Of a stretch of DNA of 16,064 bases, positions 2,139 to 15,777 are shown piece after piece. The notes below the pieces were generated by a model that was not told the origin of the DNA, made no database searches, and saw nothing but the letters and a program-made list of their open reading frames with translations. The position numbers and the translations under genes were made by a program. Source of the stretch: a virus; the UHGV virus genome UHGV-0097682, one strand, 5' to 3'. The first letter of the stretch is position 1; every line of letters starts with the position of its first letter.

Positions 2139-2337
2139 CGTAACCTGTCGGATCGCCGGAAAGGACCCGCAAAATGATAATAATTATCATCTGCATGTCA
2201 CAACGTGCATCTACGCCATCAAACCACGTCAAATAATCAATTATGACGCAGGTATCGTATTAATTGATCTGCATCAACTTAACGTAAAAACAACTTCAGA
2301 CAATACAAATCATCGACACTGAATACAGGGCAACCTC

Positions 2338-2571: not shown

Positions 2572-2628
2572 AGCAATTTAGATAATCGTGCAGACTACGC
2601 CCCCTCATATCACATGGAAGGTACTACA

Positions 2629-3039: not shown

Positions 3040-3632
3040 ATCATAACGTCCGGTTTCTTCCGTGCCAGAACCGGACTCGCTGGCATGATGAAATATGTGT
3101 ACCCGGTAACCCCGGTGTGCATCGTTTTTGATTATTCCCGCACACTCGCGCAGAAGGAGTTCCCCGTCGGGCTACGGTCTCTGTTAATACGGGAATACGG
3201 CGACGATACAGCGCATGATGTGTCAGGCTTGAATACCTTTATCCTTTAAAAGGGATATCAGTTAAGTTATCCCGTGTAGGGTATAAGCCATTATCAAAGC
3301 CACTCTGTAGGGAATGGCTTTTGTGATGGCATCACTTACTCTTTACGCTGCTATCCCACTCATCCCGGAATTTTGATGGGTTATTGAAACCTTCTGCTGA
3401 CATAACAACTCCTTCAATGTTTGGCTGAAATTAGGATGTCTTTCCATCAGTCCGCCACCACAAAGAATCTTTTTTGCCATAAGGCAGGAGGTTCATCTTT
3501 CAGTGGCTGCCGGTGTTATTTCCCCACTTACTGGCTTGGGTTGTTTCGTGGTACTGCCGTTAACTGGTGGCCCAGAATAAATTCCGGTTTCATTATCAAG
3601 CCCACCCGTAGATAGGCTTTGTAATGACATCT

Positions 3633-4157
3633 TCAATTAATCAGCAGTTCAGGCTGTGTCACCTGCAAGATGTATTCATGCTCGACAGCCAGGACACGCT
3701 TCTCTTTCTTCCGTTCGTTCATTAACCGACTGCCGATCGTACCTTTCAGCTTTGAGCGTGTTTCTTTGATGGCGTAGCGGTGCTGCATTTCTTCGCCAAT
3801 TGCCATGCGGCGGCTCAGTTGCTCTGCCATCCAGTTGAATGCTGCGATATAGCTCTCCTTGATTGCCGCAGCAGCTTTCCCGGTGAACCCCATCACAACC
3901 ATGATCCAGCCATCTTTCGTCAGGCTGTACATCGGGCGAACCTTGCCCTGCTCATCGATATAATCAGCCGACGCAAAATTGCGTTGGCTAAACTCACGCG
4001 AGCAATCAGCCTTAACCTGCTCGATTTTCCTGAGAACATCACCGTGTCGCTTGCCGAAGTACTTGGCAATTTTTCTGGATGTGGTAACGACCTCTCCGTT
4101 TTTGGCTTGCACCATTTCTCGGAAGTCGAAGGCTGGAATAACTGAATGATTATTCAT
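3633..4157 (-). CDS. Rha-family phage regulatory protein (antirepressor-like)
   Basis: Track ORF 3633-4193 begins at a GTG. The internal ATG at 4155-4157 (MNNHSVIPAFDFREMVQAKNGEVVTTSRKIAKYFGKRHGDVLRKIEQV...) is the more likely start. The N-terminal region looks like the Rha/phage-regulatory domain family. Confidence 0.6.
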   Translation of the reverse strand: MNNHSVIPAFDFREMVQAKNGEVVTTSRKIAKYFGKRHGDVLRKIEQVKADCSREFSQRNFASADYIDEQGKVRPMYSLTKDGWIMVVMGFTGKAAAAIKESYIAAFNWMAEQLSRRMAIGEEMQHRYAIKETRSKLKGTIGSRLMNERKKEKRVLAVEHEYILQVTQPELLIN

Positions 4158-4299
4158 AGCGTCTTTACCTTTTAGAAAGTGAGCCTGTCTCACAGAAAAG
4201 CCGCCCGAGAGAGGTCGCCACCTATAACGGCATTTCTCAGGCTCGCTTACTGAAAGGCTCTCGTTAATATGCGCGTGAGATGCGCTGTGAAATTCAGAT

Positions 4300-4324
4300 A
4301 TAAAAAGCCCCGCGAATGCGAGGC
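4300..4324 (-). terminator. Probable rho-independent terminator downstream of the lysis cassette
   Basis: Minus-strand RNA gccucgcauucgcggggc forms a GC-rich stem (one G-U pair) followed by uuuuuauau. It lies between the Rz stop and the Rha start. Confidence 0.4.
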
Positions 4325-4498
4325 TAAATCCTGGTATTTGTAATGACTGGCTCTTATCTCAACGCAGCCCCTTACCGCGCGCAAGATGCTCAATATCAAG
4401 CATCAGCAATGAGATGTTTAATCTGGATTCACTCCAGAAGTGATCACCATCCTGTCTACAGAGCCAGATGTGAAGGATGATGAGTAAAATTATCGCTA

Positions 4499-4966
4499 TC
4501 ATCGAAGGCATTGCGTCCTGATGTATTCCTGAAGCGTTCTCAGTGCTGTTTGGTCGCGGATAATTCCGTCCCGGATACCGAGAACGTTTCGTCCAGCAAC
4601 TGGAGAGAGTTCGACGGTGGCATCATTGCCCATGCCGGAGGCGCTGGAGGTTTCGGCTGAGGATGGCACAGGGCATTTTCCTTTGACGAGCACCCTGCCA
4701 CCATTATCAAGCTTGCGCCGAAGAGCATCATTTTCAGCTTTCGCATCAGCTAACTCCTTCGTGTATTTAGCATCGAGTGCATCAGCAGCACGCTGGCGTC
4801 GCTGCATGTCAGTAATGGTGGCGGCCGCCTGCTTCAGCTCACTGACTTTTTTATCACGCTGTTCTTTGTAGGCGATGGCGTTATCACGGTAATGATTAAC
4901 AGCCCATGACAGGCAGACGATGATGCAGATAACCAGAGCAGAGATAATCGCGGTGACTCTGCTCAT
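4499..4966 (-). CDS. Rz: Rz i-spanin (inner-membrane spanin subunit)
   Basis: Track [34 protein letters not shown]... The first ~30 residues are lambda Rz-like with an N-terminal TM segment; the C-terminal half diverges from lambda. Its ATG overlaps the R stop (ATGA). Confidence 0.9.
4540..4746 (-). CDS. Rz1: Rz1 o-spanin (outer-membrane lipoprotein), embedded in the +1 frame of Rz
   Basis: Track [25 protein letters not shown]... has a signal peptide with lipobox VAGC and a Pro-rich segment ([16 protein letters not shown]). It is wholly embedded within Rz, as in lambda. Confidence 0.75.
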
Positions 4967-5439
4967 ACCTCAATCTCTCTGACCGTTCCGCCAGCCTCTT
5001 TGAATTTTGCAATCAGGCTGTCAGCCTTATGCTCGAACTGACCATAACCAGCCCCCGGCAGTGAAGCCCAGATGTTGCTGCAACGGTCGATAGCCTGACG
5101 GATATCACCGCGATCAATCATCGGCAAAGCGCCACGTTCCTTAATCTGCTGCAGCGCAACAGCGTCCTGGCTTTTGGGAGAGAAGTCTTTCAGGCCAAGC
5201 TGCTTACGATAGGCATCCCACCAACGGGAAAGAAGCTGGTAACGTCCGGCTGCTGTTGATTTGAGTTTGGGGTTTAGCGTGACAAGTTTGCGAGGGTGAT
5301 CGGAGTAATCAGTGAATAGCTCTCCGCCTACAATGACGTCATAACCGTGATTTCTGGTTTTCTGCCGTCCGTTATCTGTTCCTTCTGACCACGCCAGCAT
5401 ATCGAGGAACGCCTTACGTTGATTATTGATTTCCACCAT
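4963..5439 (-). CDS. R: Endolysin R (lambda-type lytic transglycosylase), 158 aa
   Basis: Track [52 protein letters not shown]... is near-identical to lambda R by recollection. Confidence 0.95.
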
Positions 5440-5746
5440 CTTCTACTCCGGCTTTTTTAGCAGCGAAGCGTTTGATAAGCGAACCAATCGAGTCAGTACC
5501 GATGTAGCCGATGAACACGCTCGTTATATAAGCGAGATTGCTACTTAGTCCGGCGAAGTCGAGAAGGTCACGAATGAACCAGGCGATAATGGCGCACATC
5601 GTTGCGTCGATTACTGTTTTTGTAAACGCACCGCCATTATATCTGCCGCGAAGGTACACCATTGCAAACGCAAGGATTGCCCCGATGCCTTGTTCCTTTG
5701 CCGCGAGAATGGCGGCTAACAGGTCATGTTTTTCTGGCATCTTCAT
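5423..5746 (-). CDS. S: Holin S (class I, lambda S107/S105 dual-start type), 107 aa
   Basis: Track [32 protein letters not shown]... is near-identical to lambda S. The Met1-Lys2-Met3 dual-start motif is present. Confidence 0.95.
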
Positions 5747-5988
5747 GTCTTACCCCCAATAAGGGGATTTGCTCTATTTAATTAGGAATAAGGTCTATTA
5801 CTGATAGAACAAATCCAGGCTACTGTGTTTAGTAATCAGATTTGTTCGTGACCGATATGCACGGGCAAAACGGCAGGAGGTTGTTAGCGCAGCCTCTTGC
5901 CACCCGCTTTCACGAAGGTCATGTGTAGAAGGCCGCAGCGTAACTATCACTGATGAGTTCAGGATAGCCAGTGGCTACGGCTCAGTTA

Positions 5989-6064
5989 TGGTGCTGGTTA
6001 ACGGACTTGAACCGCTACCCATTCGCTTACAAGGCGACCGCTCTACCATTGGAGCTAAACCAGC
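5989..6064 (-). tRNA. tRNA, anticodon read as UGU (Thr); 76 nt with encoded CCA
   Basis: Minus-strand sequence GCTGGTT-TA-GCTC-CAATGGTA-GAGC-G-GTCGC-CTTGTAA-GCGAA-TGGGT-AGCGG-TTCAAGT-CCGTT-AACCAGC-A-CCA folds by hand into a canonical cloverleaf. The acceptor stem is a perfect 7 bp; the D-loop has GG and the T-loop is TTCAAGT. The anticodon stem has one mismatch. Confidence 0.6.
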
Positions 6065-6069
6065 ATATT

Positions 6070-6144
6070 TGGCGGGACAGCGTGGACTCGAACCACGATA
6101 AGAAGGTTAACAGCCTTCCGTAATGACCTTTATACGACTGACCC
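6070..6144 (-). tRNA. tRNA-like gene, anticodon read as GUU (Asn); 75 nt with encoded CCA
   Basis: Minus-strand sequence GGGTCAG-TC-GTAT-AAAGGTCA-TTAC-G-GAAGG-CTGTTAA-CCTTC-TTAT-CGTGG-TTCGAGT-CCACG-CTGTCCC-G-CCA. The anticodon and T arms are perfect. The acceptor stem has one T-T mismatch and the D-stem is only 3 bp, so it may be partly degenerate. Confidence 0.5.
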
Positions 6145-6145
6145 A

Positions 6146-6207
6146 AATAAAAAATCCCGAAACCGTTGTGCAGGCTCTAACTATTACCTGCGAACTGTTT
6201 CGGGATT
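6146..6207 (-). terminator. tR' terminator (end of the short pR' leader transcript, lambda 6S RNA equivalent)
   Basis: Minus strand reads aucccgaaac...guuucgggau followed by uuuuuuau, a long GC-containing stem with a U-run. It lies about 190 nt downstream of the predicted pR' start, matching the lambda arrangement. Confidence 0.7.
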
Positions 6208-6339
6208 GCATTTTGCAGACCTCTCAGCCTGCGATGGTTGGAGTTCCAGACGATACGTCGAAGTGACCAACTAGGCGGAATCGGTAGTAAGCGCCGCCTC
6301 TTTTCATCTCACTACCACAACGAGCGAATTAACCCATCG

Positions 6340-6376
6340 TTGGGTCAAATTTACCCAACTTTATTCAAAAAGTCAA
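6340..6376 (-). promoter_or_regulatory. Late promoter pR' with expected qut site (Q-utilisation)
   Basis: Minus strand has TTGACT (-35; plus-strand 6371-6376), a 17-nt spacer and TAAATT (-10; plus-strand 6348-6353), immediately downstream of the Q stop. The sequence matches lambda pR' by recollection. Confidence 0.7.
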
Positions 6377-6418
6377 TATTATGCCGTTAATATGTTGCCA
6401 TCCGTGGCAATCATGCTG

Positions 6419-7042
6419 TTAACGTGTGACCGCATTCAAAATGTTGTCTGCGATTGACTCTTCTTTGTGGCATTGCACCACCAGAGCGTCATACAGCGGC
6501 TTAACAGTGCGTGACCAGGTGGGTTGAGTAAGGTTTGGGATTAGCATCGTTACAGCGCGATATGCGGCGCTTGCTGGCATTCTTGAATAGCCGACACCTT
6601 TGCATCTTCCGCACTCTTTCTCAACAACTCTCCCCCACTGCTCTGTTTTGGCTATATCAACCGCACGGCCTGTACCGTGGCAATCTCTGCATCTTGCGCC
6701 CGGCGTCGCGGCACTACGGCAATAATCCGCATAAGCGAATGTTGCGAGCACTTGCAGTACCTTTGCCTTAGTATTTCCTTCAAGCTTTGCAACGCCACGG
6801 TATTTCCCCGATACCTTGTGTGCAAATTGCATCAGATAGTTGATAGCCTTTTGTTTGTCGTTCTGGCTGAGTTCGTGCTTACCACAGAATGCAGCCATTC
6901 CGAATCCGGCTTGTGATTGCGCCATCCCCATAGCAGCCATCACATCAGTACCGGAAAGAGAGTCAGAAGCCGTAGCCCGTGGTGAGTCGCTCATCATCGG
7001 GCTTTTTGGCGAATGAAATTTAGCTGCGCTTTCGAGTCTCAT
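6419..7042 (-). CDS. Q: Late-gene antiterminator Q (lambda-type), 207 aa
   Basis: Track ORF MRLESAAKFHSPKSPMMSDSPRATASDSLSG... is near-identical to lambda Q. The zinc-binding Cys cluster (CRDCHGTG...CGRCKG) is present. Confidence 0.95.
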   Translation of the reverse strand: MRLESAAKFHSPKSPMMSDSPRATASDSLSGTDVMAAMGMAQSQAGFGMAAFCGKHELSQNDKQKAINYLMQFAHKVSGKYRGVAKLEGNTKAKVLQVLATFAYADYCRSAATPGARCRDCHGTGRAVDIAKTEQWGRVVEKECGRCKGVGYSRMPASAAYRAVTMLIPNLTQPTWSRTVKPLYDALVVQCHKEESIADNILNAVTR

Positions 7043-7227
7043 GGCCTTCCCCTTTTGCCCTGTTTGACCATCAGGACGCCGTTAACTATTACGTGACGCT
7101 CGCCTTTGCTGTCTCGGTTGTACTTGAGCACTGTTCCTCTTGCGCAGGAAAGCATCCTTGCCACTTCGGTCTGATTGCCTCGTGTCTGGATAAGAAGCTC
7201 TGGTATCGTTTGAATTGTGGCGTTCAT
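7039..7227 (-). CDS. ninH: NinH-like small protein
   Basis: Track ORF MNATIQTIPELLIQTRGNQTEVARMLSCARGTVLKYNRDSKG... resembles lambda NinH (TIPDML..GNQTEVARRL..SRGTVRKY). It overlaps the Q start and the RusA stop (ATGA). Confidence 0.7.
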   Translation of the reverse strand: MNATIQTIPELLIQTRGNQTEVARMLSCARGTVLKYNRDSKGERHVIVNGVLMVKQGKRGRP

Positions 7228-7586
7228 GCGTTCTCCAGTTCGGTGATTTTTATTCCAAGCCTTCCGCCTGGTACTTTCACGCCACGAATTACGCGAATGT
7301 CATCGAATTGCTCGTCGTCTTCCGCAAATCCGGCGTGGATAAGGGAGTCGAGTAAACCTTTCAGGATGTTGTCGAGGTCGCGACGGCGGGAGTCCGGAAC
7401 GTCTACGATGACTTTGATGCGGAGTCGTGATTTGGTGAAAATGTCTAACTTAAGTTGGCGGATGATTTGCTGAACGTCTTTTCGGTATTTCTGGCCTTTA
7501 TCGCTGATGTAGTATTGGCTTCCCCGTCTTCGCCAGTAGGTGTTCAGCGACGGCGGGTATGGAAGCACAAACTGATATTCGTTCAT
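7224..7586 (-). CDS. rusA: RusA-family Holliday-junction resolvase, 120 aa
   Basis: Track ORF MNEYQFVLPYPPSLNTYW...RRRDLDNILKGLLDSLIHAGFAEDDEQFDDIRVIRG... has the same length and conserved acidic motif (RRRDLDN) as E. coli DLP12 RusA. Confidence 0.85.
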   Translation of the reverse strand: MNEYQFVLPYPPSLNTYWRRRGSQYYISDKGQKYRKDVQQIIRQLKLDIFTKSRLRIKVIVDVPDSRRRDLDNILKGLLDSLIHAGFAEDDEQFDDIRVIRGVKVPGGRLGIKITELENA

Positions 7587-7873
7587 GGTTTAATCTTCCC
7601 CTCCTTCAGCAGTATCGCCTGCGTCCTGATCACGCCTTCGAGGTGGTAAAGTCTGGCGTCTTTGTTGTCGAGATTATGGGTGCGTCGGTCGATTTCATCG
7701 TGACACGCGCTACAAGCCCATGCGCCGATCAGGTCGTCAGGCTTCATTCCAGTTCCGCAAATTCCAGCCATCCGGTAATGTGCCAGAACTGTAGTTTCAG
7801 GATTACCATTGCATATTCCGTAAATACGTACCTGGCATTCTCTGCCGCGTGCTTCTTTGCGTAGGTTAGCCAT
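7583..7873 (-). CDS. Cys-rich nin-region protein (YbcO/DUF1364-like, putative nuclease)
   Basis: Track ORF of 96 aa with several Cys and His (CQVRIYGICNG...CGTG...CSACHDEID). It sits directly upstream of rusA, as ybcO does in DLP12. Family assignment is from memory. Confidence 0.6.
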   Translation of the reverse strand: MANLRKEARGRECQVRIYGICNGNPETTVLAHYRMAGICGTGMKPDDLIGAWACSACHDEIDRRTHNLDNKDARLYHLEGVIRTQAILLKEGKIKP

Positions 7874-8142
7874 TATGGTTCACTCCAGTAATTCTCAATT
7901 GCAGCAGCCATTCTCTGCATCCACTCAGCCAGCTTTAACGCAGCTTCTCTTTCAGAACCACATTTAGGGAAATCCTTCATTTCCATGCTGGCCTTATATG
8001 TTCTGAATGCCAGGTCTCCGGTAATAACCAACTCCTGATCAAGCACCGAGCGTTTATTCCGGTGTTGAACGTAATAGACAGATTCAGTCCGCATTTCTTC
8101 TCTGTCTTTTTTGAAGGAAATAAGCTCAGAGAAATCACTCAT
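7873..8142 (-). CDS. Hypothetical nin-region protein, 89 aa
   Basis: Track ORF. It is translationally coupled at both ends: its ATG overlaps the NinF stop, and its stop shares 1 nt with the next gene's start. Confidence 0.5.
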   Translation of the reverse strand: MSDFSELISFKKDREEMRTESVYYVQHRNKRSVLDQELVITGDLAFRTYKASMEMKDFPKCGSEREAALKLAEWMQRMAAAIENYWSEP

Positions 8143-8311
8143 CGTCTTCTTCCTCGTACATTGAGCTATTCGGATCGCTCATCAGTTCTGCGCAGCAATC
8201 GGAGCACACGTGAACTTCAAGCACATGCAGCTTCTGACCGCAGTTAGCGCACGTTAATGCCCGCTCGACGCTTTCTTTCTGGTATTGAAGGGATTGGGAT
8301 GGGCTAAGCAT
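8135..8311 (-). CDS. ninF: NinF-like protein, 58 aa
   Basis: Not in the track (under 60 aa). Hand translation gives [58 protein letters not shown], near-identical to lambda NinF by recollection. Confidence 0.75.
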   Translation of the reverse strand: MLSPSQSLQYQKESVERALTCANCGQKLHVLEVHVCSDCCAELMSDPNSSMYEEEDDE

Positions 8312-8729
8312 TATTGGCGTCCTGCATCATGAGAAATACAATCATGGCGGCGCGGAGTGGAGATTCACCGCAGAAGTAGTAGCCAGGAATATTTTCCCAT
8401 TCCCAACAACCTTCCTCTAAATCACCTCCTGACCATGCGCACCATTCTTTTTCCGCTGTCATCCACATAGTGCTGATTTTGCTTTCAGTGATAATTGGCC
8501 ACGCGTATTCAGGATTATTGCAAGGATTGAAGCAATTTCCGTTTGAAGAACGGAAGCCATTAATATCCCTTTTTTGCGTCTGCCAAATAGGACCTCTTTC
8601 GTCAGTGGGGATCTCAGAATCGAAGTCTGCTTCGTCATCAGGTATGAAGAAATGCTCCTCCATATCTAAAGCCTCACATACTCGTCTGTTAATTTCAAAA
8701 TCACTTAACTGTGAATAATCCATTGTCAT
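8304..8729 (-). CDS. Hypothetical acidic, Trp/Cys-rich nin-region protein, about 141 aa
   Basis: Track ORF 8304-8765. The probable start is the ATG at 8727-8729 ([16 protein letters not shown]...), which overlaps the NinE stop (ATGA). Confidence 0.55.
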
Positions 8730-8902
8730 TTCCTCGCACGATGTCTTAGCAACCGGATATCCCACAGGTGAGCCGTGTAGTTGAAGGTTTTTACGTCAGA
8801 TTCTTTTGGGATTGGCTTGCGTTTATTTCTGGTGCGTTTCGTTGGAAGGTATTTGCAGTTTTCGCAGATGATGTCGGTGATACTTCGTCGCTGTCGCCTC
8901 AT
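8726..8902 (-). CDS. ninE: NinE-like protein, 58 aa
   Basis: Internal start of track ORF 8726-8947. [50 protein letters not shown]... matches lambda NinE by recollection. Its ATG overlaps the NinB stop. Confidence 0.7.
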
Positions 8903-9309
8903 TCGTACCTCCTGTCGGTAAATCTGACACCCTGACCAATAGCCCATGCTGTTGTGTACTCGATCAGACTTGCCATACGCTTCACACTCATCTGCGCGCT
9001 GCTTTCGCGAATGTTGACGTATTCGCCTTCAAGCCCGGGCAAAACATCAGCTTCCTGTTTTGTTGCCACTGCATGACCGCTGATCAACAAAACCTTCCAT
9101 TGTTCTGGTTTTAACCATTTATCGCGCCACTGAACTTGCCTAGCGATATCTGCGACCATCGCGTGAAATTTTGCGTTCTGGTCAAGGTTGCGCTTGTAGT
9201 CAGTAATGCGGATGGTGACTGGCTTGTCTTTATCGAGTGGTGTTGCGAGGATGGCATTTATTGCAGCTTGCTGTTGTTGCTTAGTTCGGAGGAAGATTGT
9301 TTGCTTCAC
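8899..9309 (-). CDS. ninB: NinB-family recombination protein (Orf-like), 136 aa
   Basis: Track [24 protein letters not shown]...[21 protein letters not shown]... resembles lambda NinB (LDQNRKLWA..VSRQVEW) and occupies the same position. Confidence 0.8.
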
Positions 9310-9320
9310 TGAATACTCCT

Positions 9321-9512
9321 TTATTTTTTATGCCTGTAACCCCATTCTTCCAGCAACCTTGCGGCGTACCACCCAAGAAACAAAGGAAAGAACATTACAA
9401 TGAGATATTTCCCGCCACGGTCAATGTTCGAAATTGACCAGATTACGATGTAACCAGTGCAGGACAGGAATATTACAAACCCCAAAAAGCTACTTCGTCG
9501 ACTCATGCTCAC
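9321..9512 (-). CDS. Small predicted membrane protein, 63 aa (two hydrophobic segments)
   Basis: Track ORF MSMSRRSSFLGFVIFLSCTGYIVIWSIS...YLIVMFFPLFLGWYAARLL. Its start overlaps the upstream gene's stop (ATGA). Confidence 0.45.
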   Translation of the reverse strand: MSMSRRSSFLGFVIFLSCTGYIVIWSISNIDRGGKYLIVMFFPLFLGWYAARLLEEWGYRHKK

Positions 9513-9925
9513 TCCTTCACTTTGATTCCAGCGGCGCGGATAGCCTCTACATCGCTTTCGTATTGCGATTCTGCACCTGAGTCATAGCCAATGTGATAAT
9601 CACCGGGAAGTGGGCCTTTCTTTGGCTTTTGCAGCTCAATTTCAATAGCTGCTCTCGATGCCTGCCACGTTTGCCAGTGGCCTTGAACATCGTCCATCAC
9701 GTATTGACCACCAATATCACCACTGCCAATTTCATGGTGATTTTCAGGGTAACGGATAAGGTCTGAAGATTCGCCCCCACGTCGTAACCAACTCTCTTCA
9801 AACTGGCATCTGCTTTCGTCATCTTTCATAAGGCAGTCACATTCAATAAAAATCGGCTCTCCCCAAGGAGTAGAACCTCCGCTATCACACATTCCTGTGT
9901 TATTGCACTTTTGGCACTTGCTCAC
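9509..9925 (-). CDS. Hypothetical protein with N-terminal Cys cluster, 138 aa
   Basis: Track ORF MSKCQKCNNTGMCDSGG...IECDCLMKDDESRCQ... has a CxxC...C...CxC pattern suggesting a small metal-binding domain. No family recognised. Confidence 0.5.
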   Translation of the reverse strand: MSKCQKCNNTGMCDSGGSTPWGEPIFIECDCLMKDDESRCQFEESWLRRGGESSDLIRYPENHHEIGSGDIGGQYVMDDVQGHWQTWQASRAAIEIELQKPKKGPLPGDYHIGYDSGAESQYESDVEAIRAAGIKVKE

Positions 9926-9937
9926 ATTAACCTCCGA

Positions 9938-10144
9938 TTAACTCACAAAACGCCACGCCACTTTTGCTACGACAACAGGCATAACACCGATAATCACCCA
10001 CAGAAAAATGCTACCGAAAAGCACACCAACCAGGTCTTTACCTTCGCCTACCAACCGGACAAAACTGCTGGCAACCACAATGAACGTCGCCACCATCCAC
10101 ATAGCACCGAGAATCCTCAATGCAGAAAAAATCAACTCAACCAC
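9938..10144 (-). CDS. Small predicted membrane protein, 68 aa (GTG start in track)
   Basis: Track ORF. It is almost entirely hydrophobic with two predicted TM helices. Confidence 0.4.
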   Translation of the reverse strand: MVELIFSALRILGAMWMVATFIVVASSFVRLVGEGKDLVGVLFGSIFLWVIIGVMPVVVAKVAWRFVS

Positions 10145-10220
10145 GATTTACCCTCCCCCAAATAAAAAGGCCTGCGATTACCAGCAGGCCTGTTACAAGC
10201 TCAGTGATGTAGATGGTCAT
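10137..10220 (-). CDS. Possible 27-aa hydrophobic peptide coupled to the helicase stop
   Basis: Hand translation gives MTIYITELVTGLLVIAGLFIWGRVNRG. Its ATG (10218-10220) overlaps the helicase stop (ATGA). Not in the track because of length. Confidence 0.25.
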   Translation of the reverse strand: MTIYITELVTGLLVIAGLFIWGRVNRG

Positions 10221-11671
10221 CAGAATCCTCCTTTCTTCTTGGACTGCGATTCCTCGCGTTCACGGCGGCGCATTTCAGCAGACTGTTGGTCTGTGTCATA
10301 AATAGCGCCATTTGCCTGAATGCAATACACCGTGCCGGTATTGCCATGACGATTGAGACGAAGGATTAGTTCGGTTTCACCAGGTGGAACACTGTCATCA
10401 AAAGCACCTTCACGATGGATCCCCACCCAATAATCGCAATCCTGTTCAATCTGCCCTGTATCTCGTGAGTCACTTGGTAATGGGCGTTTATTGGTTCGGC
10501 TTTCCAGTGCGCGGTTAAGCTGTGTCAGAAGCACAACAACGCAATCAAGCTCTTTGGCAAGGTTCTTCAGTCCTTTGGTGATCATGCCGTAAGCAAGGTC
10601 GTTGCGATCGGCCTTCTCAGCGGTCATTAGTGTCAGGTAATCGACCAGAATCATGCCAACACATCCTTTTTCTCGCTTGATTCGACGGCTTTCGCTGACG
10701 ATTTGAGCCAGAGATAATCCCGGCGTGTCGTCGATGTAAAGCAGGTCGATTTCACTCAAGCGATTGGCTGTTTCGATCGCCCTGTTGAAGTCACCATCGT
10801 AATCACCCTGATAGCCGTCATCAGCGTCATTTGTCGCCGGAAGGTAAAAAATATTCGGGTTAACACCTGACTTCTGTCCTACCAGTTTTTCCAGTATCTG
10901 GTCACCGGGCATTTCAAGGCTGAACATCAGAGCGGGCTTTTTCTCATGCACTGCGCAGTTGATTGCCATCTGGCTGTATAGCGTCGTTTTCCCCATCTTA
11001 GGGCGAGCGCCAATGACAAACAGAGAGCCTTTCACCAGGCCTTTCGGTGACAGCATCCTGTCCAGCGATGGGATCCCTGTGCTCATTCCTCGTTGTTCGC
11101 CTGACGGGTCAAATCGCTTCTCAAGGTCGCTAACCCAGTCTTCCATGACCTCACCAAATGAGCGAAGGCCGCGACGCGATCCGGTTTTTGCATGGTCTGT
11201 CAGTTGCGTGAAAATCGACTGAATAGCTTCGTACTTCTGCGTTGCAGTCATTCCGTTGCGGGAATAGAGCAATTCCGTCGCTTCAGTCATGCGGTTGATG
11301 GCGTAGCGTTCCATTGCGGTTTCACGAACCTGCATTGCATAGGCAACGATGTTTGCTGCGCTTGGCGTGTTCTTTGCGATCTCAGCGATATAAGCAAAAC
11401 CGCCAACAGACACCGTTAACGATTTACGCTCCAGTTCATCGAAAAGCGTCAGGCCATCTACTGGCTTTTGCTCACGGTGCATTCTGGTTATTTCTTCGAA
11501 AATGATTTTGTGTGGTCGGCTGTAAAATGAATCAGGCTTCAGCATCGCCAGGACTTTCTGGACGCGCTCACTGCTGTCATCATCCAGAAGCAATCCACCA
11601 ATCACCGCCTGCTCTGCCTCGATACTATGGGGCGGCGCATAAAAATTATCGGTCATCGTGTTCACCCTCAC
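10220..11671 (-). CDS. Replicative DNA helicase, DnaB family (P22 gene 12-type)
   Basis: Track ORF of 483 aa with Walker A GARPKMGKTT and DnaB-like motifs (DNA-binding N-terminus, RecA-like C-terminus). The track start is GTG; an in-frame ATG at 11654-11656 (MTDNFYAPP...) is the more likely start. Confidence 0.9.
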   Translation of the reverse strand: MRVNTMTDNFYAPPHSIEAEQAVIGGLLLDDDSSERVQKVLAMLKPDSFYSRPHKIIFEEITRMHREQKPVDGLTLFDELERKSLTVSVGGFAYIAEIAKNTPSAANIVAYAMQVRETAMERYAINRMTEATELLYSRNGMTATQKYEAIQSIFTQLTDHAKTGSRRGLRSFGEVMEDWVSDLEKRFDPSGEQRGMSTGIPSLDRMLSPKGLVKGSLFVIGARPKMGKTTLYSQMAINCAVHEKKPALMFSLEMPGDQILEKLVGQKSGVNPNIFYLPATNDADDGYQGDYDGDFNRAIETANRLSEIDLLYIDDTPGLSLAQIVSESRRIKREKGCVGMILVDYLTLMTAEKADRNDLAYGMITKGLKNLAKELDCVVVLLTQLNRALESRTNKRPLPSDSRDTGQIEQDCDYWVGIHREGAFDDSVPPGETELILRLNRHGNTGTVYCIQANGAIYDTDQQSAEMRRREREESQSKKKGGF

Positions 11672-12545
11672 GAACTTTCAGGTAGGTATTATCGTTAAGC
11701 AGGAAATCAAATCCCTTTTTGTGCCAGACGGTTCCGCGTTGATGGTTTGGGCGCTCTTCGAACATCCATCGGCAATTTTCGCCTACGTAGCTCAAATAAT
11801 TTCTCCAGTCCTGCATCGTGAACCCATGCCCGTCAAGCTGGCGGGTTATCACTCCGGCTTTGCGCCAGAACGTTCGGATCTGGTTTTTACGCTTGTCATT
11901 CAGTGCGCGGATTCTTGGCGCTTCAGGAAGGATTTCGTGGTAAGCATCGACAACATCCTGACAGCTAACGGAAGGTTTTTTCTTGTCAGACTTTTTGTCT
12001 GCTGCGGTACTCTCTAATACGTCAGTATTAGAGATAATATTATTATATTCTTTATCTGTGGTAATTTGCTGGTAATCTGCTGGTACAGTATTGCTTGCAG
12101 GCATTGGTATTGCTGGCTTTGAGGTGGTAATTTGCTGGTAATCTGCTGGTACAAAATTTGACTGATAATCGTCATATTTCTCTACCGAGAAAACTGAGAA
12201 TTTACCGTGTGAAACCCAGTCAATCATGCCGAGTTTTTTGAACTTTCTAAGCAGGTACTGAACGCGATCTGGTTTGAGTCCTGTTTCAAACGCCAGAGAG
12301 TTTCTACCGCCAAGTAGCTTCCCTCTGCCTACCAGAATTTCTCCTGCGTCAGTCATTACATACTCAGGCGTATGCTTTGCTTTGAGGATTAAGTGAACCC
12401 ACAGATGCGCTGCTTCTGCGTCCTTGTAAAACGGCACATCCATAATTTTACGGTGCAGCAAGGCATACCCCTTACCGCTGCTTTGATGCGGTTGTTGTAG
12501 CCTTCTGGCCTCTCTGGCTTCGGCTAGATTAGATATGTTACTCAT
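11646..12545 (-). CDS. Replication initiator (lambda O-analogous); origin iterons embedded in the coding sequence
   Basis: Track ORF of 299 aa directly upstream of the helicase and downstream of cII. It contains an internal repeated peptide ([10 protein letters not shown] twice, 22 aa apart) encoded by DNA direct repeats. Confidence 0.8.
12058..12153. repeat. ori: Putative replication origin: two 30-bp direct repeats (66-bp period), each made of 11-bp iterons tggtaatNtgc, flanked by AT-rich DNA
   Basis: gtggtaatttgctggtaatctgctggtaca occurs at 12058-12087 and again at 12124-12153, with a degenerate copy (tggtattgctgg) between. AT-rich stretches lie at 12019-12056 and 12154-12180. Confidence 0.6.
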
Positions 12546-12684
12546 GACCTTTCTCCTTCTGCATCAGCTTCACTTTTTCCAACTCAGCCCGGAATCGACC
12601 AGGCTGCTTGAAGCTGGACAGGAAGCGATCACGTAGTATGTGTTTGTGAATTTTGTCCTGGTAAGGACTGAGTTGTTTTGTCAT
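12538..12684 (-). CDS. Possible small ORF (48 aa) between cII and the initiator gene
   Basis: Hand translation gives [48 protein letters not shown]. Its stop overlaps the initiator ATG. No homolog recognised. Confidence 0.35.
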
Positions 12685-12716
12685 AATGACTCCTGTGGAT
12701 TGATCCAGTAATTCCC

Positions 12717-13013
12717 TCAGAATTGCATATCAATTTGCTTAAAATCCTCGGTGGCGGCCGGGGATTTTTTCTTTGTGATTTCATCAAGCGCATACTTAAA
12801 AGCCCTGCTAATCGGACTGATGTCTGATGCCATTCCGAAAGCACACAAGACCGAAGCAATAAATCTCCAGTCCGTTCTGCTTATCTTCGATTCATGACAG
12901 CCAATCATCTTTGCCAGACCGCGCTGGGTAATAGCTGACAGATTGATAAGTAAATCTGTTTCTGCGCGATCAACGTCACGCTGTGATAGTTTGCTGTAAC
13001 TTGTTCTTTCCAT
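12717..13013 (-). CDS. cII: cII-like transcriptional activator, 98 aa
   Basis: Track ORF. It is the same length as lambda CII and shares its C-terminal tail ([18 protein letters not shown] here, NKKRPAATERSEQIQMEF in lambda), plus an HTH segment ([14 protein letters not shown]). It sits between cro/nutR and the replication genes. Confidence 0.85.
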
Positions 13014-13098
13014 TTCTTAAGATTTCCAATAGTGAATAGTTAGTTGAAAGGTATGCGTGGAAACGCATATGGCCTTAGTTGGTCAGATATCTTGGAAC

Positions 13099-13144
13099 TC
13101 GCTTTTCAGCGACGTAGGACGAATGTCCGTTGTTACAAAGAGCG
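13099..13144 (-). promoter_or_regulatory. nutR: nutR (boxA + boxB) N-utilisation site
   Basis: Minus strand has boxA CGCTCTTTGTAACAA, a 17-nt spacer, then boxB hairpin TCGCT-GAAA-AGCGA (5-bp stem, GAAA loop). It lies between the cro stop and cII. Confidence 0.55.
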
Positions 13145-13154
13145 GATCCGCTTA

Positions 13155-13370
13155 TTAAGCGGCTTTGTGTTCCGGCGGGAACACGTCATCAAGACTGACT
13201 TTTGCGCCTAACTTGTTTAGGCACGCAACAAGAGCACGGCATGTTTTAAGGTCTGGGAAGCGACGACCAGATTCCCAATGTCCGATAGCTCCCTGTGTGC
13301 ATCCAACTGCCTTAGCAAGTGTTGTTTGAGAGATATTCAGTGACTCTCGATATTTTCGTAGGTTGCTCAT
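13155..13370 (-). CDS. cro: Cro-like repressor (HTH), 71 aa
   Basis: Internal start of track ORF 13155-13541: MSNLRKYRESLNISQTTLAKAVGCTQGAIGHWESGRRFP... The ATG at 13368-13370 is preceded by GGAGGG. The HTH recognition helix (TQGAIGHW) is paralogous to the cI one (TQGGIGHW). It is divergent from cI. Confidence 0.8.
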   Translation of the reverse strand: MSNLRKYRESLNISQTTLAKAVGCTQGAIGHWESGRRFPDLKTCRALVACLNKLGAKVSLDDVFPPEHKAA

Positions 13371-13487
13371 ATGCCCTCCATAGTAAACACGAATAAAAAA
13401 ATACAATATGTACTTTGCGAATACAAGTAAAAATACATATTGTGCATGGATGGTTCCAGTACAGAGCGTAATAATAAGGACATGAAA
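13371..13487. promoter_or_regulatory. OR operator / pR-pRM divergent promoter region
   Basis: Intergenic region between divergent cro and cI. Imperfect palindromic sites of the form TACA-N3-TGTA occur at 13402-13412 (tacaatatgta) and 13434-13444 (tacatattgtg), with a weaker candidate between them. Confidence 0.6.
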
Positions 13488-14138
13488 ATGAAATGGTATG
13501 AACTGGCTAGATCCAGAATGAAAGAGCTCGGCATAACTCAAGAGAAGTTAGCCGAAGAGCTAGGTATGACGCAGGGTGGGATTGGACACTGGTTGCGCGG
13601 ATCTCGTCATCCATCTCTTAGTGATATTGGTGTGGTGTTTAAATACCTTGGTATTGATAACATATCATTCAACCACGACGGGACATTTTCACCTGTTGGC
13701 GAATACTCATCGGCCCCAGTTAAAAAACAATATGAGTACCCTGTTTTTTCTCATGTTCAGGCTGGGATGTTCTCTCCAGAACTCAGAACCTTTACCAAAG
13801 GCGATGCGGAGAGATTGGTAAGCACAACCAAAAAAGCCAGTGACTCTGCATTCTGGCTTGAGGTTGAAGGTAACTCAATGACCGCACCAACAGGTTCCAA
13901 ACCCAGCTTTCCTGACGGGATGTTAATTCTGGTTGACCCTGAGCAAGCTGTTGAGCCCGGCGATTTCTGCATAGCCAGACTTGGTGGTGATGAATTTACC
14001 TTCAAGAAACTGATCAGGGATAGCGGTCAGGTGTTTCTACAGCCACTAAACCCACAATACCCAATCCCATGCAATGAGAGTTGTTCCGTTGTGGGGAAAG
14101 TTATCGCCAGCCAATGGCCTGAAGAGACGTTTGGGTGA
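13488..14138 (+). CDS. cI: CI repressor: N-terminal HTH domain of non-lambda specificity fused to a lambda-type C-terminal autocleavage/dimerisation domain (S24-like)
   Basis: Track ORF 13440-14138. The likely start is the ATG at 13488 (MKWYELARS...), with aagga 8 nt upstream; the ATG at 13482 is an alternative. The C-terminal ~130 aa match lambda CI by recollection, including the Ala-Gly cleavage site (VQAGMF), the catalytic Ser (GNSMT) and Lys (FTFKKL). The N-terminal domain differs from lambda. Confidence 0.9.
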
Positions 14139-14177
14139 TGAAACCACTTTTATCTACAATTTACAGGGCGGTAAACA

Positions 14178-14735
14178 TTGGCAAAAATAGATGATTATCA
14201 GCCAAGCCAAGTAGAAGTTGATAAAGTACTTTATTGTAAAAAAATAGTTAACTTTTCTGGCGTTAAATGGAAACAGAAACCAAGTCGCTCTGATATGTGG
14301 CTACAAGCCCATATCATCCCCTTGGATGAGGATTGTATACCTATACAAGGGCTAAAGTTTGAACTGAAATGGAAACCAGATCAGGATTCAGAACCTGATG
14401 ACCCGATTTCTTACCCTAAAATAAATATTATTGCTTTCTATCATAACAAGAGGGTTTTCGCGGTAGATACCTATCACTTTGACAAACACACGAATAGTTA
14501 CAAGGTCGATCATCCGAAGTACCAAGATATCATTTACGGTGCTCACTACCATGTATACTATGAAGAAGCTGGATACTATAGTGATAGAATAGCGTTTCCA
14601 ATCGAAGATGACATAAACCCAGATGACCTGGTAGGGTATTGGAATTACTTCTGTAAACATCTGAACATAACTTACTCTGGGAGAATACCTTTACCGCTTG
14701 AAGATGAGTCGGGGCAAATGGGGTTTGGAATATGA
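14178..14735 (+). CDS. Hypothetical protein, 185 aa, His/Tyr/Asp-rich; first gene of the AT-rich operon downstream of cI (rexA position)
   Basis: Track ORF with a TTG start; the first in-frame ATG is at codon 40. There are no TM segments and no Walker motif. Codon usage is visibly AT-rich compared with cI. Its stop overlaps the next gene's ATG (ATGA). Confidence 0.6.
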   Translation: MAKIDDYQPSQVEVDKVLYCKKIVNFSGVKWKQKPSRSDMWLQAHIIPLDEDCIPIQGLKFELKWKPDQDSEPDDPISYPKINIIAFYHNKRVFAVDTYHFDKHTNSYKVDHPKYQDIIYGAHYHVYYEEAGYYSDRIAFPIEDDINPDDLVGYWNYFCKHLNITYSGRIPLPLEDESGQMGFGI

Positions 14736-15484
14736 TGTGCTCAACAGTGATCTCACAACTAGGTTTCGAATGCCATCCAATAGGCAAGACCTTGAGAATT
14801 ATCAGTCCATTCACTTACTGTGATGATGGAGAGCATGTCGGTGCCTTTATCCGTGAAGTCAATGGTAGGTATTTAGTTAGTGACAGATGCGATGCCTTAA
14901 TGAATATGGAGGCAAGAGGGATCTCGCTTACCAAAAAACGACTTGATGAGATACGACAATTACTGCTTAAAGAAGGCGCAGAACTCAATGCTCGAGGAGA
15001 AATCATTGCTTGGGCAACAGAAAAGGATGTCGGTGCGATTACATCGAACATAATTAGAGCTGGTATACTCGCATCAACTTTGTCGTTAGACTGGTATCAG
15101 CCAGTTCAAGCTGAAAAGTTTGAAAGTATGGTTATTGATTATCTATATCACACAGAGCTTAGAGACGCACTTTCTCTTCGTGAAAACGTATATGGCTTGA
15201 GTGGACATCAAATTACCGTCCCTGTAACAATAAAAACCGACATACCTAAATACGTTTTTACATCAAGCGTGAAACACGGAGGAAGCTGGAATAGTGCTTA
15301 CTCATTGCTTGGGAAACTAATTGATCTTAAAGCTTCAAGTGAGGAGTATAACAACAGATTTGTTGTTATAGACAGCGAAGCAATTGGTGATCAAATGCAA
15401 CAACTCTCCTTACTCTTCCATGAATCAAGCCAAGTTCTACCATTCTCCAAAAGAGAGACTTGGGTTAAGAGACTTGCAGCATAA
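14732..15484 (+). CDS. Hypothetical protein, 250 aa; second gene of the cI-downstream operon (rexB position, but not RexB-like)
   Basis: Track ORF MMCSTVISQLGFECHPIGKTLRIISPFTY... appears soluble and has no recognisable catalytic motif by eye. It is followed by a terminator. Confidence 0.65.
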   Translation: MMCSTVISQLGFECHPIGKTLRIISPFTYCDDGEHVGAFIREVNGRYLVSDRCDALMNMEARGISLTKKRLDEIRQLLLKEGAELNARGEIIAWATEKDVGAITSNIIRAGILASTLSLDWYQPVQAEKFESMVIDYLYHTELRDALSLRENVYGLSGHQITVPVTIKTDIPKYVFTSSVKHGGSWNSAYSLLGKLIDLKASSEEYNNRFVVIDSEAIGDQMQQLSLLFHESSQVLPFSKRETWVKRLAA

Positions 15485-15489
15485 TACAA

Positions 15490-15515
15490 CCCGGCCTCAG
15501 CGCCGGGTTTTCTTT
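15490..15515 (+). terminator. Rho-independent terminator ending the cI operon (tImm-like)
   Basis: Stem cccggc / gccggg with a 6-nt loop, followed by ttttctttg, 6 nt after the stop of the 250-aa gene. Confidence 0.55.
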
Positions 15516-15702
15516 GCCTCACGTTCGCCCACCTAAAAACACATAACCAATTATATTTATTGAAAAATAAATAGATGCAACCCACTAAACCACGCAATTC
15601 TGATCTCTCCTTACATCGCCGAGGCAATACATCCACGCTAAAAAACAACACTATTAAATACAAAGCGTTATAAAAAACCACGCCAACTTACAACAAATTA
15701 TA

Positions 15703-15731
15703 TTGATCTTGTAAAGTACATATCGTACTAT
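15703..15731 (+). promoter_or_regulatory. Putative pL promoter with overlapping OL operator
   Basis: TTGATC (-35, 15703-15708), a 17-nt spacer and TACTAT (-10, 15726-15731). The operator-like palindrome tacatatcgta (15717-15727) overlaps the -10. The orientation and distance to nutL and N fit the lambda layout. Confidence 0.45.
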
Positions 15732-15777
15732 TTAACCGTCAGCAGGACGCTGGAAGCCAAATGGAACAGACTGGCAG

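What the first reader, a model, noticed from the sequence alone, without database searches (positions are those of the whole stretch)
12019..12180. Iteron-type replication origin embedded in the initiator gene, with the DNA repeat mirrored as a peptide repeat
Two exact 30-bp direct repeats lie 66 bp apart, each built from 11-bp iterons (tggtaatNtgc, about one helical turn), with AT-rich flanks. They sit inside the O-like initiator ORF, as lambda ori sits inside O. Because 66 bp is 22 codons, the protein carries a duplicated [10 protein letters not shown] segment, probably an interdomain linker. The initiator is coupled to a DnaB-type helicase, not a lambda P loader, so this is a P22-type replication module next to lambda-type late genes.
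Basis: partly seen in the sequence, partly recalled or inferred. Interest (0 to 1): 0.5.

Follow-up and report, generated by a model that had tools for sequence, protein, structure and literature searches.

The report
Known HK022-type phage replication origin
The repeats are real and are very probably the replication origin of a common HK022/HK620/VT2-Sakai-type lambdoid prophage, lying inside its initiator gene; public phage records already mark these same repeats as the origin, so the finding is correct but ordinary.

Summary
Two exact 30-bp direct repeats (12058-12087 and 12124-12153, 66 bp apart) lie inside the 299-aa O-like gene (11646-12545, minus strand). Each is built of 11-bp units. 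Translation of the units in three frames gives [10 protein letters not shown] twice.

- About 87 homologous genes, down to about 43% N-domain identity, keep one layout: three 11-bp iterons, a 33-bp variable spacer, three iterons, an AT-rich tract, then a perfect palindrome.
- The iteron sequence changes with the N-terminal domain.
- Synonymous sites are nearly frozen in the iterons, AT tract and palindrome, but not in the spacer.
- The AT tract is the least stable 40 bp of the 16-kb window.
- AlphaFold places the repeats in a low-confidence linker between two folded domains.
- A DnaB-family helicase gene follows.

It is already known. GenBank records of VT2-Sakai ("ori iteron 1/2"), HK620 and Sf6 (rep_origin) mark these repeats, and a phage L paper describes the 11-bp units. 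"P22-type" holds for architecture only: the N-domain shows no detectable similarity to lambda O or P22 gp18.

Side observations are alleles with 1 to 4 iteron clusters, compensatory changes in the palindrome, and a mosaic junction just after the iterons.

The parts
11646..12545 (-). O-like replication initiator gene (299 aa), HK022/HK620/VT2-Sakai allele, called 'Eru3A' in Stx-phage literature
   Evidence: ORF and translation. It is 100% identical to mEp235 and phiv205-1 O and 99.3% to VT2-Sakai O. PHROG 345 'replication initiation O-like', E=5.6e-88. No Pfam Phage_rep_O hit.
12162..12545 (-). Coding region for the N-terminal domain (aa 1-128), the predicted winged-helix iteron-binding domain
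   Evidence: AlphaFold pLDDT is 74-89 for residues about 26-128. The Foldseek matches are all winged-helix DNA binders but weak (E about 7e-3). The domain also matches 'DnaD-like helicase loader' PHROGs. Its sequence type co-varies with the iteron type.
12124..12153 (-). Iteron block 1 (gene nt 393-422): three 11-bp units on the coding strand, TGTACCAGCAG ATTACCAGCAA ATTACCAC; encodes [10 protein letters not shown]
   Evidence: Annotated 'ori iteron 1' in AP000422.1 and as part of rep_origin in AF335538. 25 of 30 columns are invariant in 43 distinct genes, with codon-position-3 diversity 0.029.
12088..12123 (-). Variable spacer between the iteron blocks (gene nt 423-458), encoding [12 protein letters not shown]
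   Evidence: This is the fastest-evolving part of the gene at all codon positions (diversity 0.149; 7 of 36 columns invariant). Its sequence is unrelated between lineages but its length is kept, so the blocks stay 66 bp apart.
12058..12087 (-). Iteron block 2 (gene nt 459-488), an exact copy of block 1
   Evidence: Annotated 'ori iteron 2' in AP000422.1. 24 of 30 columns invariant, with codon-position-3 diversity 0.014.
12035..12057 (-). AT-rich tract (gene nt 489-511), the candidate DNA-unwinding element
   Evidence: GC is 0.225 for 12020-12059. It lies within the least stable 40-bp stretch of the 16-kb window and of every homologous gene. Codon-position-3 diversity is 0.000.
12011..12034 (.). 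Perfect palindrome TCTCTAATAC-TGAC-GTATTAGAGA (gene nt 512-535), with 10-nt arms and a 4-nt loop
   Evidence: (I3). As single-stranded DNA it folds into a hairpin of -8.6 kcal/mol, z -4.6. All 87 homologous genes have a perfect palindrome here with 9-11-nt arms, at least 6 different stem sequences and different encoded peptides, which is compensatory change.
11973..12161 (-). Coding region for the interdomain linker (aa 129-191), which contains the iterons, AT tract and palindrome
   Evidence: AlphaFold pLDDT is 24-36. Natural alleles of 277, 299, 321 and 343 aa differ by whole 22-aa units.
11649..11972 (-). Coding region for the C-terminal domain (aa 192-299), the presumed helicase-recruiting domain
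   Evidence: AlphaFold pLDDT is mostly 65-89 over the 10-residue blocks covering residues 191-290. It is the only part with similarity to P22 gp18 (25% identity, E=1e-4). It is 96-100% identical in Sf6 and ST64T although their N-domains are 45-57% identical. Erwinia phage 59 has a lambda-O-type C-domain there, next to a P-like loader gene.
10220..11671 (-). DnaB-family replicative helicase gene ('P' of HK022; relatives annotate the ATG at 11656), overlapping the end of the initiator gene
   Evidence: Pfam DnaB (1.5e-31) and DnaB_C (3.1e-60). TIGR03600 phage_DnaB scores 584 bits against a cut-off of 499. It is 32% identical to P22 gp12.

Best explanation
This is the replication origin of an HK022-type lambdoid prophage, embedded in the linker-coding middle of its own initiator gene.

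Proposed mechanism (inferred by analogy with ori-lambda and P22):
1. Transcription from pR produces the O-like protein.
2. Its N-terminal winged-helix domain binds the 11-bp direct repeats. There are three per block and two blocks 66 bp apart, so all units follow an 11-bp register.
3. The resulting nucleoprotein complex stresses the adjoining AT-rich tract, which melts. The neighbouring palindrome may extrude as a hairpin.
4. The C-terminal domain of the initiator recruits the phage's own DnaB-type helicase onto the opened DNA. This bypasses host DnaB and a P-type loader.
5. Host primase and Pol III take over.

The [10 protein letters not shown] peptide repeat has no function of its own. It is the translation of three consecutive 11-bp units in the three reading frames, tolerated because it falls in a disordered linker.

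Shown here: the anatomy, its conservation, DNA-level selection, iteron/N-domain co-variation, and the domain layout.
Inferred: binding, melting, helicase recruitment and origin firing.
For: 1. Repeats far beyond chance.
2. The same blocks are annotated as 'ori iteron 1/2' bound by O protein in VT2-Sakai AP000422.1, as rep_origin in HK620 AF335538, and as 'putative; repeat region reminiscent of the phage lambda origin' in Sf6. PMC8022706 describes six 11-bp repeats (TGTCCAACGGA) in the homologous phage L gene 18 as the likely origin, and cites genetics (Hilliker 1981) showing that the replication region is exchangeable only as a whole.
3. The layout is conserved in 8 phage genes and about 80 IMG/VR loci down to about 43% N-domain identity. 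It runs 3x11 bp, 33-bp spacer, 3x11 bp, AT tract, palindrome.
4. The iteron core changes with the N-domain lineage: TACCAGC, GTCCAGC, GTCCAAC, TGCCAAC. Meanwhile C-domains can be 100% identical across iteron types. About 170 E. coli genomes match only gene nt 491-900, so the mosaic junction sits immediately after iteron block 2.
5. Selection acts at the DNA level. Codon-position-3 diversity is 0.029 and 0.014 in the iteron blocks and 0.000 in the AT tract and palindrome, against 0.131 (N-domain), 0.212 (C-domain) and 0.137 (spacer). The 11-bp period is not a multiple of 3.
6. The AT tract is the least stable 40 bp of the window and of each homologous gene.
7. AlphaFold gives two folded domains joined by a low-confidence linker that coincides with the origin.
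8. A DnaB-family helicase gene follows directly. Reference origins in lambda O and P22 gene 18 occupy the same relative position.
Against: - No experiment was found, in the papers I could search, showing origin activity, initiator binding or unwinding for this allele. All public annotations are 'putative' or by analogy.
- The initiator is not detectably homologous to lambda O, so the analogy rests on position and architecture.
- The iterons are short direct repeats without the dyad symmetry of lambda iterons, so the binding mode may differ.
- One database protein (P0144, from a 1.6-kb ENA contig) combines the HK022-type N-domain with Sf6-type iterons. It breaks the co-inheritance rule, unless it is an assembly chimera or a dead prophage.
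- Alleles with a single iteron block exist in complete genomes. Either one block suffices or those prophages are replication-defective.
- The diversity comparison is not corrected for phylogeny.
Confidence: 0.85

Rival explanations
1. Neutral in-frame tandem duplication. The repeats would be slippage products in a disordered linker, with no function at the DNA level.
For: The linker tolerates loss or gain of whole 66-bp units. Alleles of 277, 299, 321 and 343 aa exist, and the units in the 343-aa allele are 100% identical, which implies recent expansion. AlphaFold confidence is very low there.
Against: The two blocks are kept near-identical within every lineage while the spacer between them diverges freely. 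The internal 11-bp period is out of frame. Synonymous sites are 5-10 times less variable than in the flanking domains. Spacing and layout are conserved down to about 43% N-domain identity. A neutral duplication would decay.
Confidence: 0.04
2. The peptide repeat is the selected feature. [10 protein letters not shown] would be, for example, a docking motif for the helicase or a host protein, and the DNA repeat merely encodes it.
For: The motif has a loosely conserved form (V/C)P(A/T)(D/E)xQ across lineages.
Against: If the peptide were selected, synonymous sites should vary; they do not (codon-position-3 diversity 0.014-0.029). The peptide differs strongly between lineages ([36 protein letters not shown]), exactly as the 11-bp DNA core changes. 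One 11-bp unit read in three frames accounts for the whole peptide. The region is predicted to be disordered.
Confidence: 0.03
3. The repeats are initiator-binding sites, but their main role is regulatory: autoregulation, titration, replication-type incompatibility or exclusion. The true start site would lie elsewhere.
For: Ectopic lambda iterons inhibit rep-lambda phages (PMC3349717), so iteron arrays can act as titrating or exclusion elements. Copy number of the blocks is polymorphic.
Against: The adjoining AT tract is the least stable DNA in the window and has frozen synonymous sites. The iteron / AT tract / palindrome order copies the experimentally defined lambda origin and the annotated P22 origin. 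No other comparable repeat or low-stability cluster lies within the replication module.
Confidence: 0.08

Closest known systems
ori of HK620, VT2-Sakai, HK022 and mEp235 (the same allele); Sf6 and phage L/ST64T (sister alleles)
   Same: The initiator N-domain is 99-100% identical to HK022, HK620 and VT2-Sakai. The two 30-bp blocks are identical in VT2-Sakai, and HK022 differs by 1 nt in block 2. They are the features annotated 'ori iteron 1/2' (AP000422.1) and rep_origin (AF335538). Sf6 and phage L (PMC8022706) have the same layout with a different 11-bp unit.
   Different: Nothing of substance. The window is another copy of this allele, which is present at full length in 227 of 5,426 complete E. 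coli genomes.
ori-lambda inside gene O
   Same: The origin lies in the middle of the initiator gene, with the order iterons, AT-rich tract, inverted repeat. It coincides with the interdomain linker. The N-domain and iterons are inherited together, and the C-domain matches the partner protein. Iteron number is variable: 4 in lambda against 6 in Stx phages, adding 13 aa to O (PMC7466680).
   Different: Lambda has four iterons annotated as 18-bp sites; they are dyad-symmetric and bound by O dimers (established knowledge). Here there are six 11-bp direct repeats in two blocks. No sequence similarity to lambda O was found by BLASTP or Pfam. The partner is a DnaB-type helicase instead of the P loader.
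Phage P22 ori in gene 18, with gene 12 helicase
   Same: An initiator plus a phage-encoded DnaB-family helicase. The origin is in the initiator gene, with repeats, an A-rich tract and a palindrome. There is weak C-terminal similarity between the initiators.
   Different: The P22 repeats are about 20 bp (ATCGGTAAAA type, partly inverted). The gp18 N-domain resembles that of lambda O in the printed sequences (DLDDGY/ELDDGY motif) and is unrelated to this one. The helicases are only 32% identical.
Replisome-organiser / DnaD-like initiators of Gram-positive phages (e.g. SPP1 G38P with oriL inside gene 38; lactococcal TP901-1 type). The named examples are from my own knowledge.
   Same: The N-domain matches 'DnaD-like helicase loader' PHROGs (E 5e-21 to 6e-8) and tblastn hits in Lactobacillus, Listeria and Enterococcus phages. 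In those systems too, direct repeats inside the initiator gene act as the origin.
   Different: The relationship is distant (22-33% identity over the N-domain). Partner proteins and host range differ. I did not examine their repeats here.

Membership tests
Lambdoid-phage origin embedded in the initiator gene (ori-lambda class, defined by architecture) | An array of direct repeats in the middle of the initiator gene | tested here: met
   The position (gene nt 393-488) is comparable to lambda (349-433) and P22 (353-497).
Lambdoid-phage origin embedded in the initiator gene (ori-lambda class, defined by architecture) | An AT-rich, easily melted tract directly downstream of the repeats, followed by an inverted repeat | tested here: met
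   The least stable 40 bp of the window is 12015-12055. Palindrome at 12011-12034. Both are conserved in all homologues.
Lambdoid-phage origin embedded in the initiator gene (ori-lambda class, defined by architecture) | Repeat sequence specific to, and co-inherited with, the initiator's N-terminal DNA-binding domain | tested here: met
   Four iteron cores track the N-domain lineages, while C-domains recombine freely. There is a single exception, P0144.
Lambdoid-phage origin embedded in the initiator gene (ori-lambda class, defined by architecture) | Initiator binds the repeats and the fragment supports initiator-dependent replication | not testable with these tools
   This needs EMSA or footprinting and a plasmid replication assay. 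No published test for this allele was found.
Lambda O protein family (Pfam Phage_rep_O, PF04492) | Sequence match of the N-terminal domain to the family profile or to lambda O | tested here: not met
   No Pfam hit at E<=0.01 other than a weak DUF7376 match. BLASTP against lambda O gave nothing (E>4), and against the P22 gp18 N-domain nothing. NCBIfam gave none.
HK022-type initiator (PHROG 345; 'Eru3A' of Stx phages) | Full-length sequence match to HK022, HK620 and VT2-Sakai O | tested here: met
   100% N-domain identity to HK022 and HK620, 99.3% DNA identity to VT2-Sakai. PHROG 345, E=5.6e-88, covering residues 2-299. PMC8044961 names the Sakai-type pair Eru3A/Eru3B.
Phage DnaB-family replicative helicase (TIGR03600) | DnaB N- and C-terminal domains, with a score above the curated cut-off | tested here: met
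   584 bits against a cut-off of 498.65. Pfam DnaB and DnaB_C.
Lambda P-type helicase loader module | A Phage_lambda_P loader gene downstream of the initiator | tested here: not met
   The downstream gene is a helicase. By contrast, Erwinia phage 59 combines this N-domain and iteron type with a lambda-O-like C-domain and a P-like loader.
Plasmid iteron origins (Rep_3 / RepA / pi type) | A Rep_3-family initiator with 17-22-bp iterons upstream of the rep gene | tested here: not met
   There is no Rep_3 or other plasmid Rep hit in Pfam. The units are 11 bp and lie inside the gene. 432 of 433 E. coli places are chromosomal.

The most novel reading that the evidence does not exclude
The perfect palindrome just beyond the AT tract may be an obligatory structural part of this origin class. 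It is kept in all 87 genes examined, through at least six compensatory stem variants that change the encoded peptide. One possibility is a hairpin or cruciform extruded on melting, which serves as the entry site where the phage's DnaB-type helicase is loaded without a dedicated loader.

Together with the natural series of 1 to 4 iteron blocks, this would make the locus a ready-made system for studying loader-independent helicase loading and origin-strength tuning.
Probability: 0.2. Interest if true: 0.45.

Novelty: already known. Interest (0 to 1): 0.15.

Why it matters
The finding adds little new. It correctly re-identifies, from sequence alone, an origin that curators of VT2-Sakai, HK620 and Sf6 had already marked.

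It has some practical relevance. This replication module drives Stx2a prophages of the O157:H7 Sakai lineage ('Eru3'), and toxin output depends on prophage replication. Yet this origin has apparently never been tested biochemically, unlike the lambda/933W type.

The comparative data gathered here give clear, cheap experimental handles:
- DNA-level selection on the iterons, AT tract and palindrome
- iteron/N-domain co-variation with identical C-domains
- natural alleles with 1 to 4 iteron blocks
- a compensatory palindrome

Tried and rejected
- Pfam and NCBIfam on the initiator gave no Phage_rep_O or other named family. I therefore rejected 'member of the lambda O family'.
- BLASTP against lambda O gave nothing. 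Against P22 gp18 there was only a weak C-terminal match. I rejected 'P22 allele'.
- A PDB sequence search gave nothing meaningful.
- A Foldseek search against PDB gave only generic winged-helix hits at E about 1e-2. I use this only as weak support.
It was redone with a shallow 9-sequence alignment, so the model is of moderate quality (mean pLDDT 66).
- DnaA boxes: none within the replication module, and the window-wide count is at chance level. Direct DnaA involvement is therefore not suggested.
- Literature searches for VT2-Sakai plus iteron returned nothing, and HK022 plus iterons returned only lambda-centred papers. The original HK022, HK620 and VT2-Sakai genome papers are not in the searchable library, so I rely on their GenBank annotations.
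- I considered counting 3-copy alleles in E. coli genomes by BLAST coverage, but dropped it because overlapping local alignments would mask copy number. I used subject spans and protein lengths instead.

Full report
**1. The observation**

Window 12058-12087 and 12124-12153 are exact 30-bp direct repeats, 66 bp apart (sequence read). They are the longest exact direct repeat in the 16-kb window. Shuffled sequences reach 15 bp at most. Each block consists of 11-bp units. TGGTAATNTGC occurs exactly four times, only here, and 0 of 200 shuffles reach the observed count at up to 1 mismatch. A truncated third unit follows in each block, and TRF finds period 11.

The repeats lie inside ORF 11646-12545 on the minus strand. 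Its 299-aa product carries [10 protein letters not shown] twice, 22 residues apart. On the coding strand a block reads TGTACCAGCAG ATTACCAGCAA ATTACCAC. The core TACCAGC is therefore translated as V-P-A, then Y-Q-Q, then I-T-T. The peptide repeat is simply three 11-bp units read in the three frames.

**2. What surrounds the repeats**

In gene direction the second block is followed by a 23-bp AT-rich tract. GC is 0.225 for 12020-12059. This tract lies in the least stable 40-bp stretch of the whole window (12015-12055; dG -40.0 against mean -55.5, sd 4.1).

Next comes a perfect palindrome, TCTCTAATAC-TGAC-GTATTAGAGA, at 12011-12034. As single-stranded DNA it folds into a hairpin of -8.6 kcal/mol, z -4.6.

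The next gene (10220-11656/11671, minus strand) is a DnaB-family helicase:
- Pfam DnaB and DnaB_C
- TIGR03600 phage_DnaB, 584 bits
- 32% identity to P22 gp12

Upstream lie a DUF2740 orf48 homologue, cII, a cro-position HTH gene and a cI-type repressor. Downstream lie nin genes, Q, an S-type holin, a lysozyme and Rz. This is an ordinary lambdoid early-right operon.

**3. Identity of the element**

The initiator gene is 100% identical to that of phages mEp235 and phiv205-1. It is 99.3-99.6% identical to VT2-Sakai, Stx2 phage 86 and many O157 Stx phages. Its N-domain is 100% identical to HK022 and HK620 O.

Public records already mark these very repeats:
- AP000422.1 (VT2-Sakai) has misc_binding features 'ori iteron 1' and 'ori iteron 2', bound moiety O protein. 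They map exactly to window 12124-12153 and 12058-12087.
- AF335538 (HK620) has a two-piece rep_origin at gene nt 393-488.
- The Sf6 record has 'rep_origin, putative; repeat region reminiscent of the phage lambda origin; similar to phage HK620'.
[quoted passage not shown] It recalls genetic evidence that the replication region is exchangeable only as a unit.
- PMC8044961 calls the Sakai-type gene pair Eru3A/Eru3B but does not mention iterons.

The allele is common. 396 of 5,426 complete E. coli genomes match, 227 over the full length, and nearly all matches are chromosomal.

**4. Independent comparative tests**

(a) Conservation of layout. I examined eight phage genes: HK022, CobraSix, ST64T, Erwinia 59, a Klebsiella prophage, Sf6, ENT47670 and the window. 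I also examined about 80 IMG/VR loci. Down to about 43% N-domain identity, all show three 11-bp units, a 33-bp spacer, three units, an AT tract that is the least stable 40 bp of the gene, and a perfect palindrome.

(b) Co-variation. The 11-bp core differs by lineage:

| Lineage | 11-bp core |
|---|---|
| HK022 / window | TACCAGC |
| CobraSix type | GTCCAGC |
| ST64T / Sf6 / ENT47670 | GTCCAAC |
| Klebsiella / Erwinia | TGCCAAC |

The C-terminal domain recombines independently. Sf6 and the window have 100% identical C-domains but 45% identical N-domains and different iterons. About 170 E. coli genomes match the query only from gene nt 491 onward, that is, from the first base after iteron block 2. 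Erwinia phage 59 joins this N-domain and iteron type to a lambda-O-like C-domain next to a P-like loader. So the N-domain plus iterons form one inherited unit, and the C-domain goes with the partner protein, as in the classical lambda model.

(c) DNA-level selection. Nucleotide diversity (pi) was measured in 43 distinct genes that share the HK022-type iteron:

| Region | Third-codon-position diversity |
|---|---|
| N-domain | 0.131 |
| C-domain | 0.212 |
| Spacer | 0.137 |
| Iteron block 1 | 0.029 |
| Iteron block 2 | 0.014 |
| AT tract | 0.000 |
| Palindrome | 0.000 |

The spacer varies equally at all codon positions. This contrast, together with the out-of-frame 11-bp period, excludes a purely peptide-level or neutral explanation. 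The comparison is not corrected for phylogeny.

(d) Palindrome. All 87 genes keep perfect arms of 9-11 nt, but with at least six different stem sequences and different encoded peptides ([57 protein letters not shown]). These are compensatory changes.

**5. The protein**

The initiator has no Pfam Phage_rep_O hit, no BLASTP similarity to lambda O, and only a weak C-terminal match to P22 gp18 (25% identity, E=1e-4). It belongs to PHROG 345. Its N-part also matches 'DnaD-like helicase loader' PHROGs and phage proteins of Firmicutes.

AlphaFold, run with a shallow 9-sequence alignment (mean pLDDT 66), gives:
- a folded N-domain, residues about 26-128, pLDDT 74-89
- a folded C-domain, residues about 192-296
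- a low-confidence segment, residues 129-191, pLDDT 24-36, which coincides with the iterons, AT tract and palindrome

Foldseek hits are all winged-helix DNA-binding proteins but are weak (E about 7e-3). The 'interdomain linker' idea is further supported by natural alleles that differ by whole 22-aa units:

| Allele length | Iteron blocks | Examples |
|---|---|---|
| 277 aa | 1 | IMG/VR locus L053; H135 and H136 in complete genomes |
| 299 aa | 2 | the window |
| 321 aa | 3 | many E. coli genomes |
| 343 aa | 4 | P0001, with 66-bp units 100% identical |

Parallel 3-block alleles occur in the Sf6-type (318 aa) and Klebsiella-type (321 aa) lineages.

**6. Mechanism**

The most likely mechanism is the lambda/P22 scheme adapted to this allele:
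1. The winged-helix N-domain binds the 11-bp direct repeats, probably as tandem monomers because the units lack dyad symmetry.
2. The two blocks, six 11-bp units apart, assemble an O-some-like complex.
3. The adjacent AT tract melts, and the palindrome may extrude.
4. The C-domain brings in the phage DnaB-type helicase.
5. Host primase and polymerase follow.

Steps 1-5 are inferred. Anatomy, conservation, selection and co-variation are shown here.

The rivals score low for the reasons given in section 4:
- neutral duplication
- selected peptide motif
- a purely regulatory or titrating array

No DnaA boxes lie nearby.

**7. Caveats**

- I found no experimental demonstration for this allele. The lambda/933W type has been studied biochemically (PMC7466680), but this type has not.
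- One protein (P0144, from a 1.6-kb ENA contig) pairs the HK022 N-domain with Sf6-type iterons. It may be an assembly chimera.
- Single-block alleles raise the question of the minimal origin.

**8. Verdict**

Novelty: already known, and annotated in GenBank for the identical sequence. Interest is low. The small added value lies in the quantitative evidence for DNA-level selection, the compensatory palindrome, the exact mosaic junction and the 1-to-4-block allelic series.

Noticed in passing
window 12058-12153; L013:3393-3620; L049; L053; proteins P0001, P0002, P0126, P0127; hits H135, H136: The number of 66-bp iteron units is polymorphic in nature. Alleles with 1 block (277 aa), 2 (299 aa), 3 (321 aa) and 4 (343 aa) exist. 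Independent 3-block alleles occur in the Sf6-type (318 aa) and Klebsiella-type (321 aa) lineages. Within an allele the spacers are identical, which implies recent unequal crossing-over.
   Followed up: partly
window 12011-12034, and the same position in 87 homologous genes: A perfect 9-11-nt-arm palindrome follows the AT tract and is kept by compensatory changes. There are at least 6 stem variants, each altering the encoded peptide. Its role is unknown.
   Followed up: partly
gene nt 491 = window 12055; E. coli hits H138-H158: About 170 complete E. coli genomes match the initiator gene only from nt 491 to its end. The recurrent mosaic junction therefore lies exactly between iteron block 2 and the AT tract. 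The AT tract, palindrome and C-domain travel together, separately from the N-domain and iterons.
   Followed up: partly
protein P0144 (ENA, 1,619-bp contig): This protein combines an HK022-type N-domain with an Sf6-type iteron/linker region. It is the only mismatch between N-domain and iteron type that I saw. It could be an assembly chimera or a defective recombinant.
   Followed up: no
L008 (Erwinia phage vB_EhrS_59) 1486-3137: A natural domain swap. This phage has the HK022-family N-domain and 11-bp iterons, fused to a lambda-O-like C-terminal domain and followed by a lambda-P-like loader instead of a DnaB helicase.
   Followed up: partly
window 14178-14735 and 14732-15484 (+): Two overlapping genes lie just downstream of the cI-type repressor, in the position of lambda rexAB. 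They match the PADLOC candidate defence system PDC-M24 (A: E=5e-4; B: E=5e-10) and Pfam DUF6978 and DUF1828. They may be a prophage-encoded defence moron.
   Followed up: partly
window 1-3237 and 13046-16064: The ends of the window are not covered by the best phage match (phiv205-1 covers 3238-13045 at 99.5%). The immunity region and the segment beyond Rha differ from that phage, which is typical lambdoid mosaicism. ORF 1404-1949 (-) has an N-terminal match to PADLOC 'mad1' (E=1e-11).
   Followed up: no
window 12088-12123 and homologous spacers: The first 11 bp of the otherwise hypervariable spacer keep a loose AAAnCCAG motif across iteron types (AAAGCCAGCAA here). It may be a degenerate fourth unit.
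   Followed up: no
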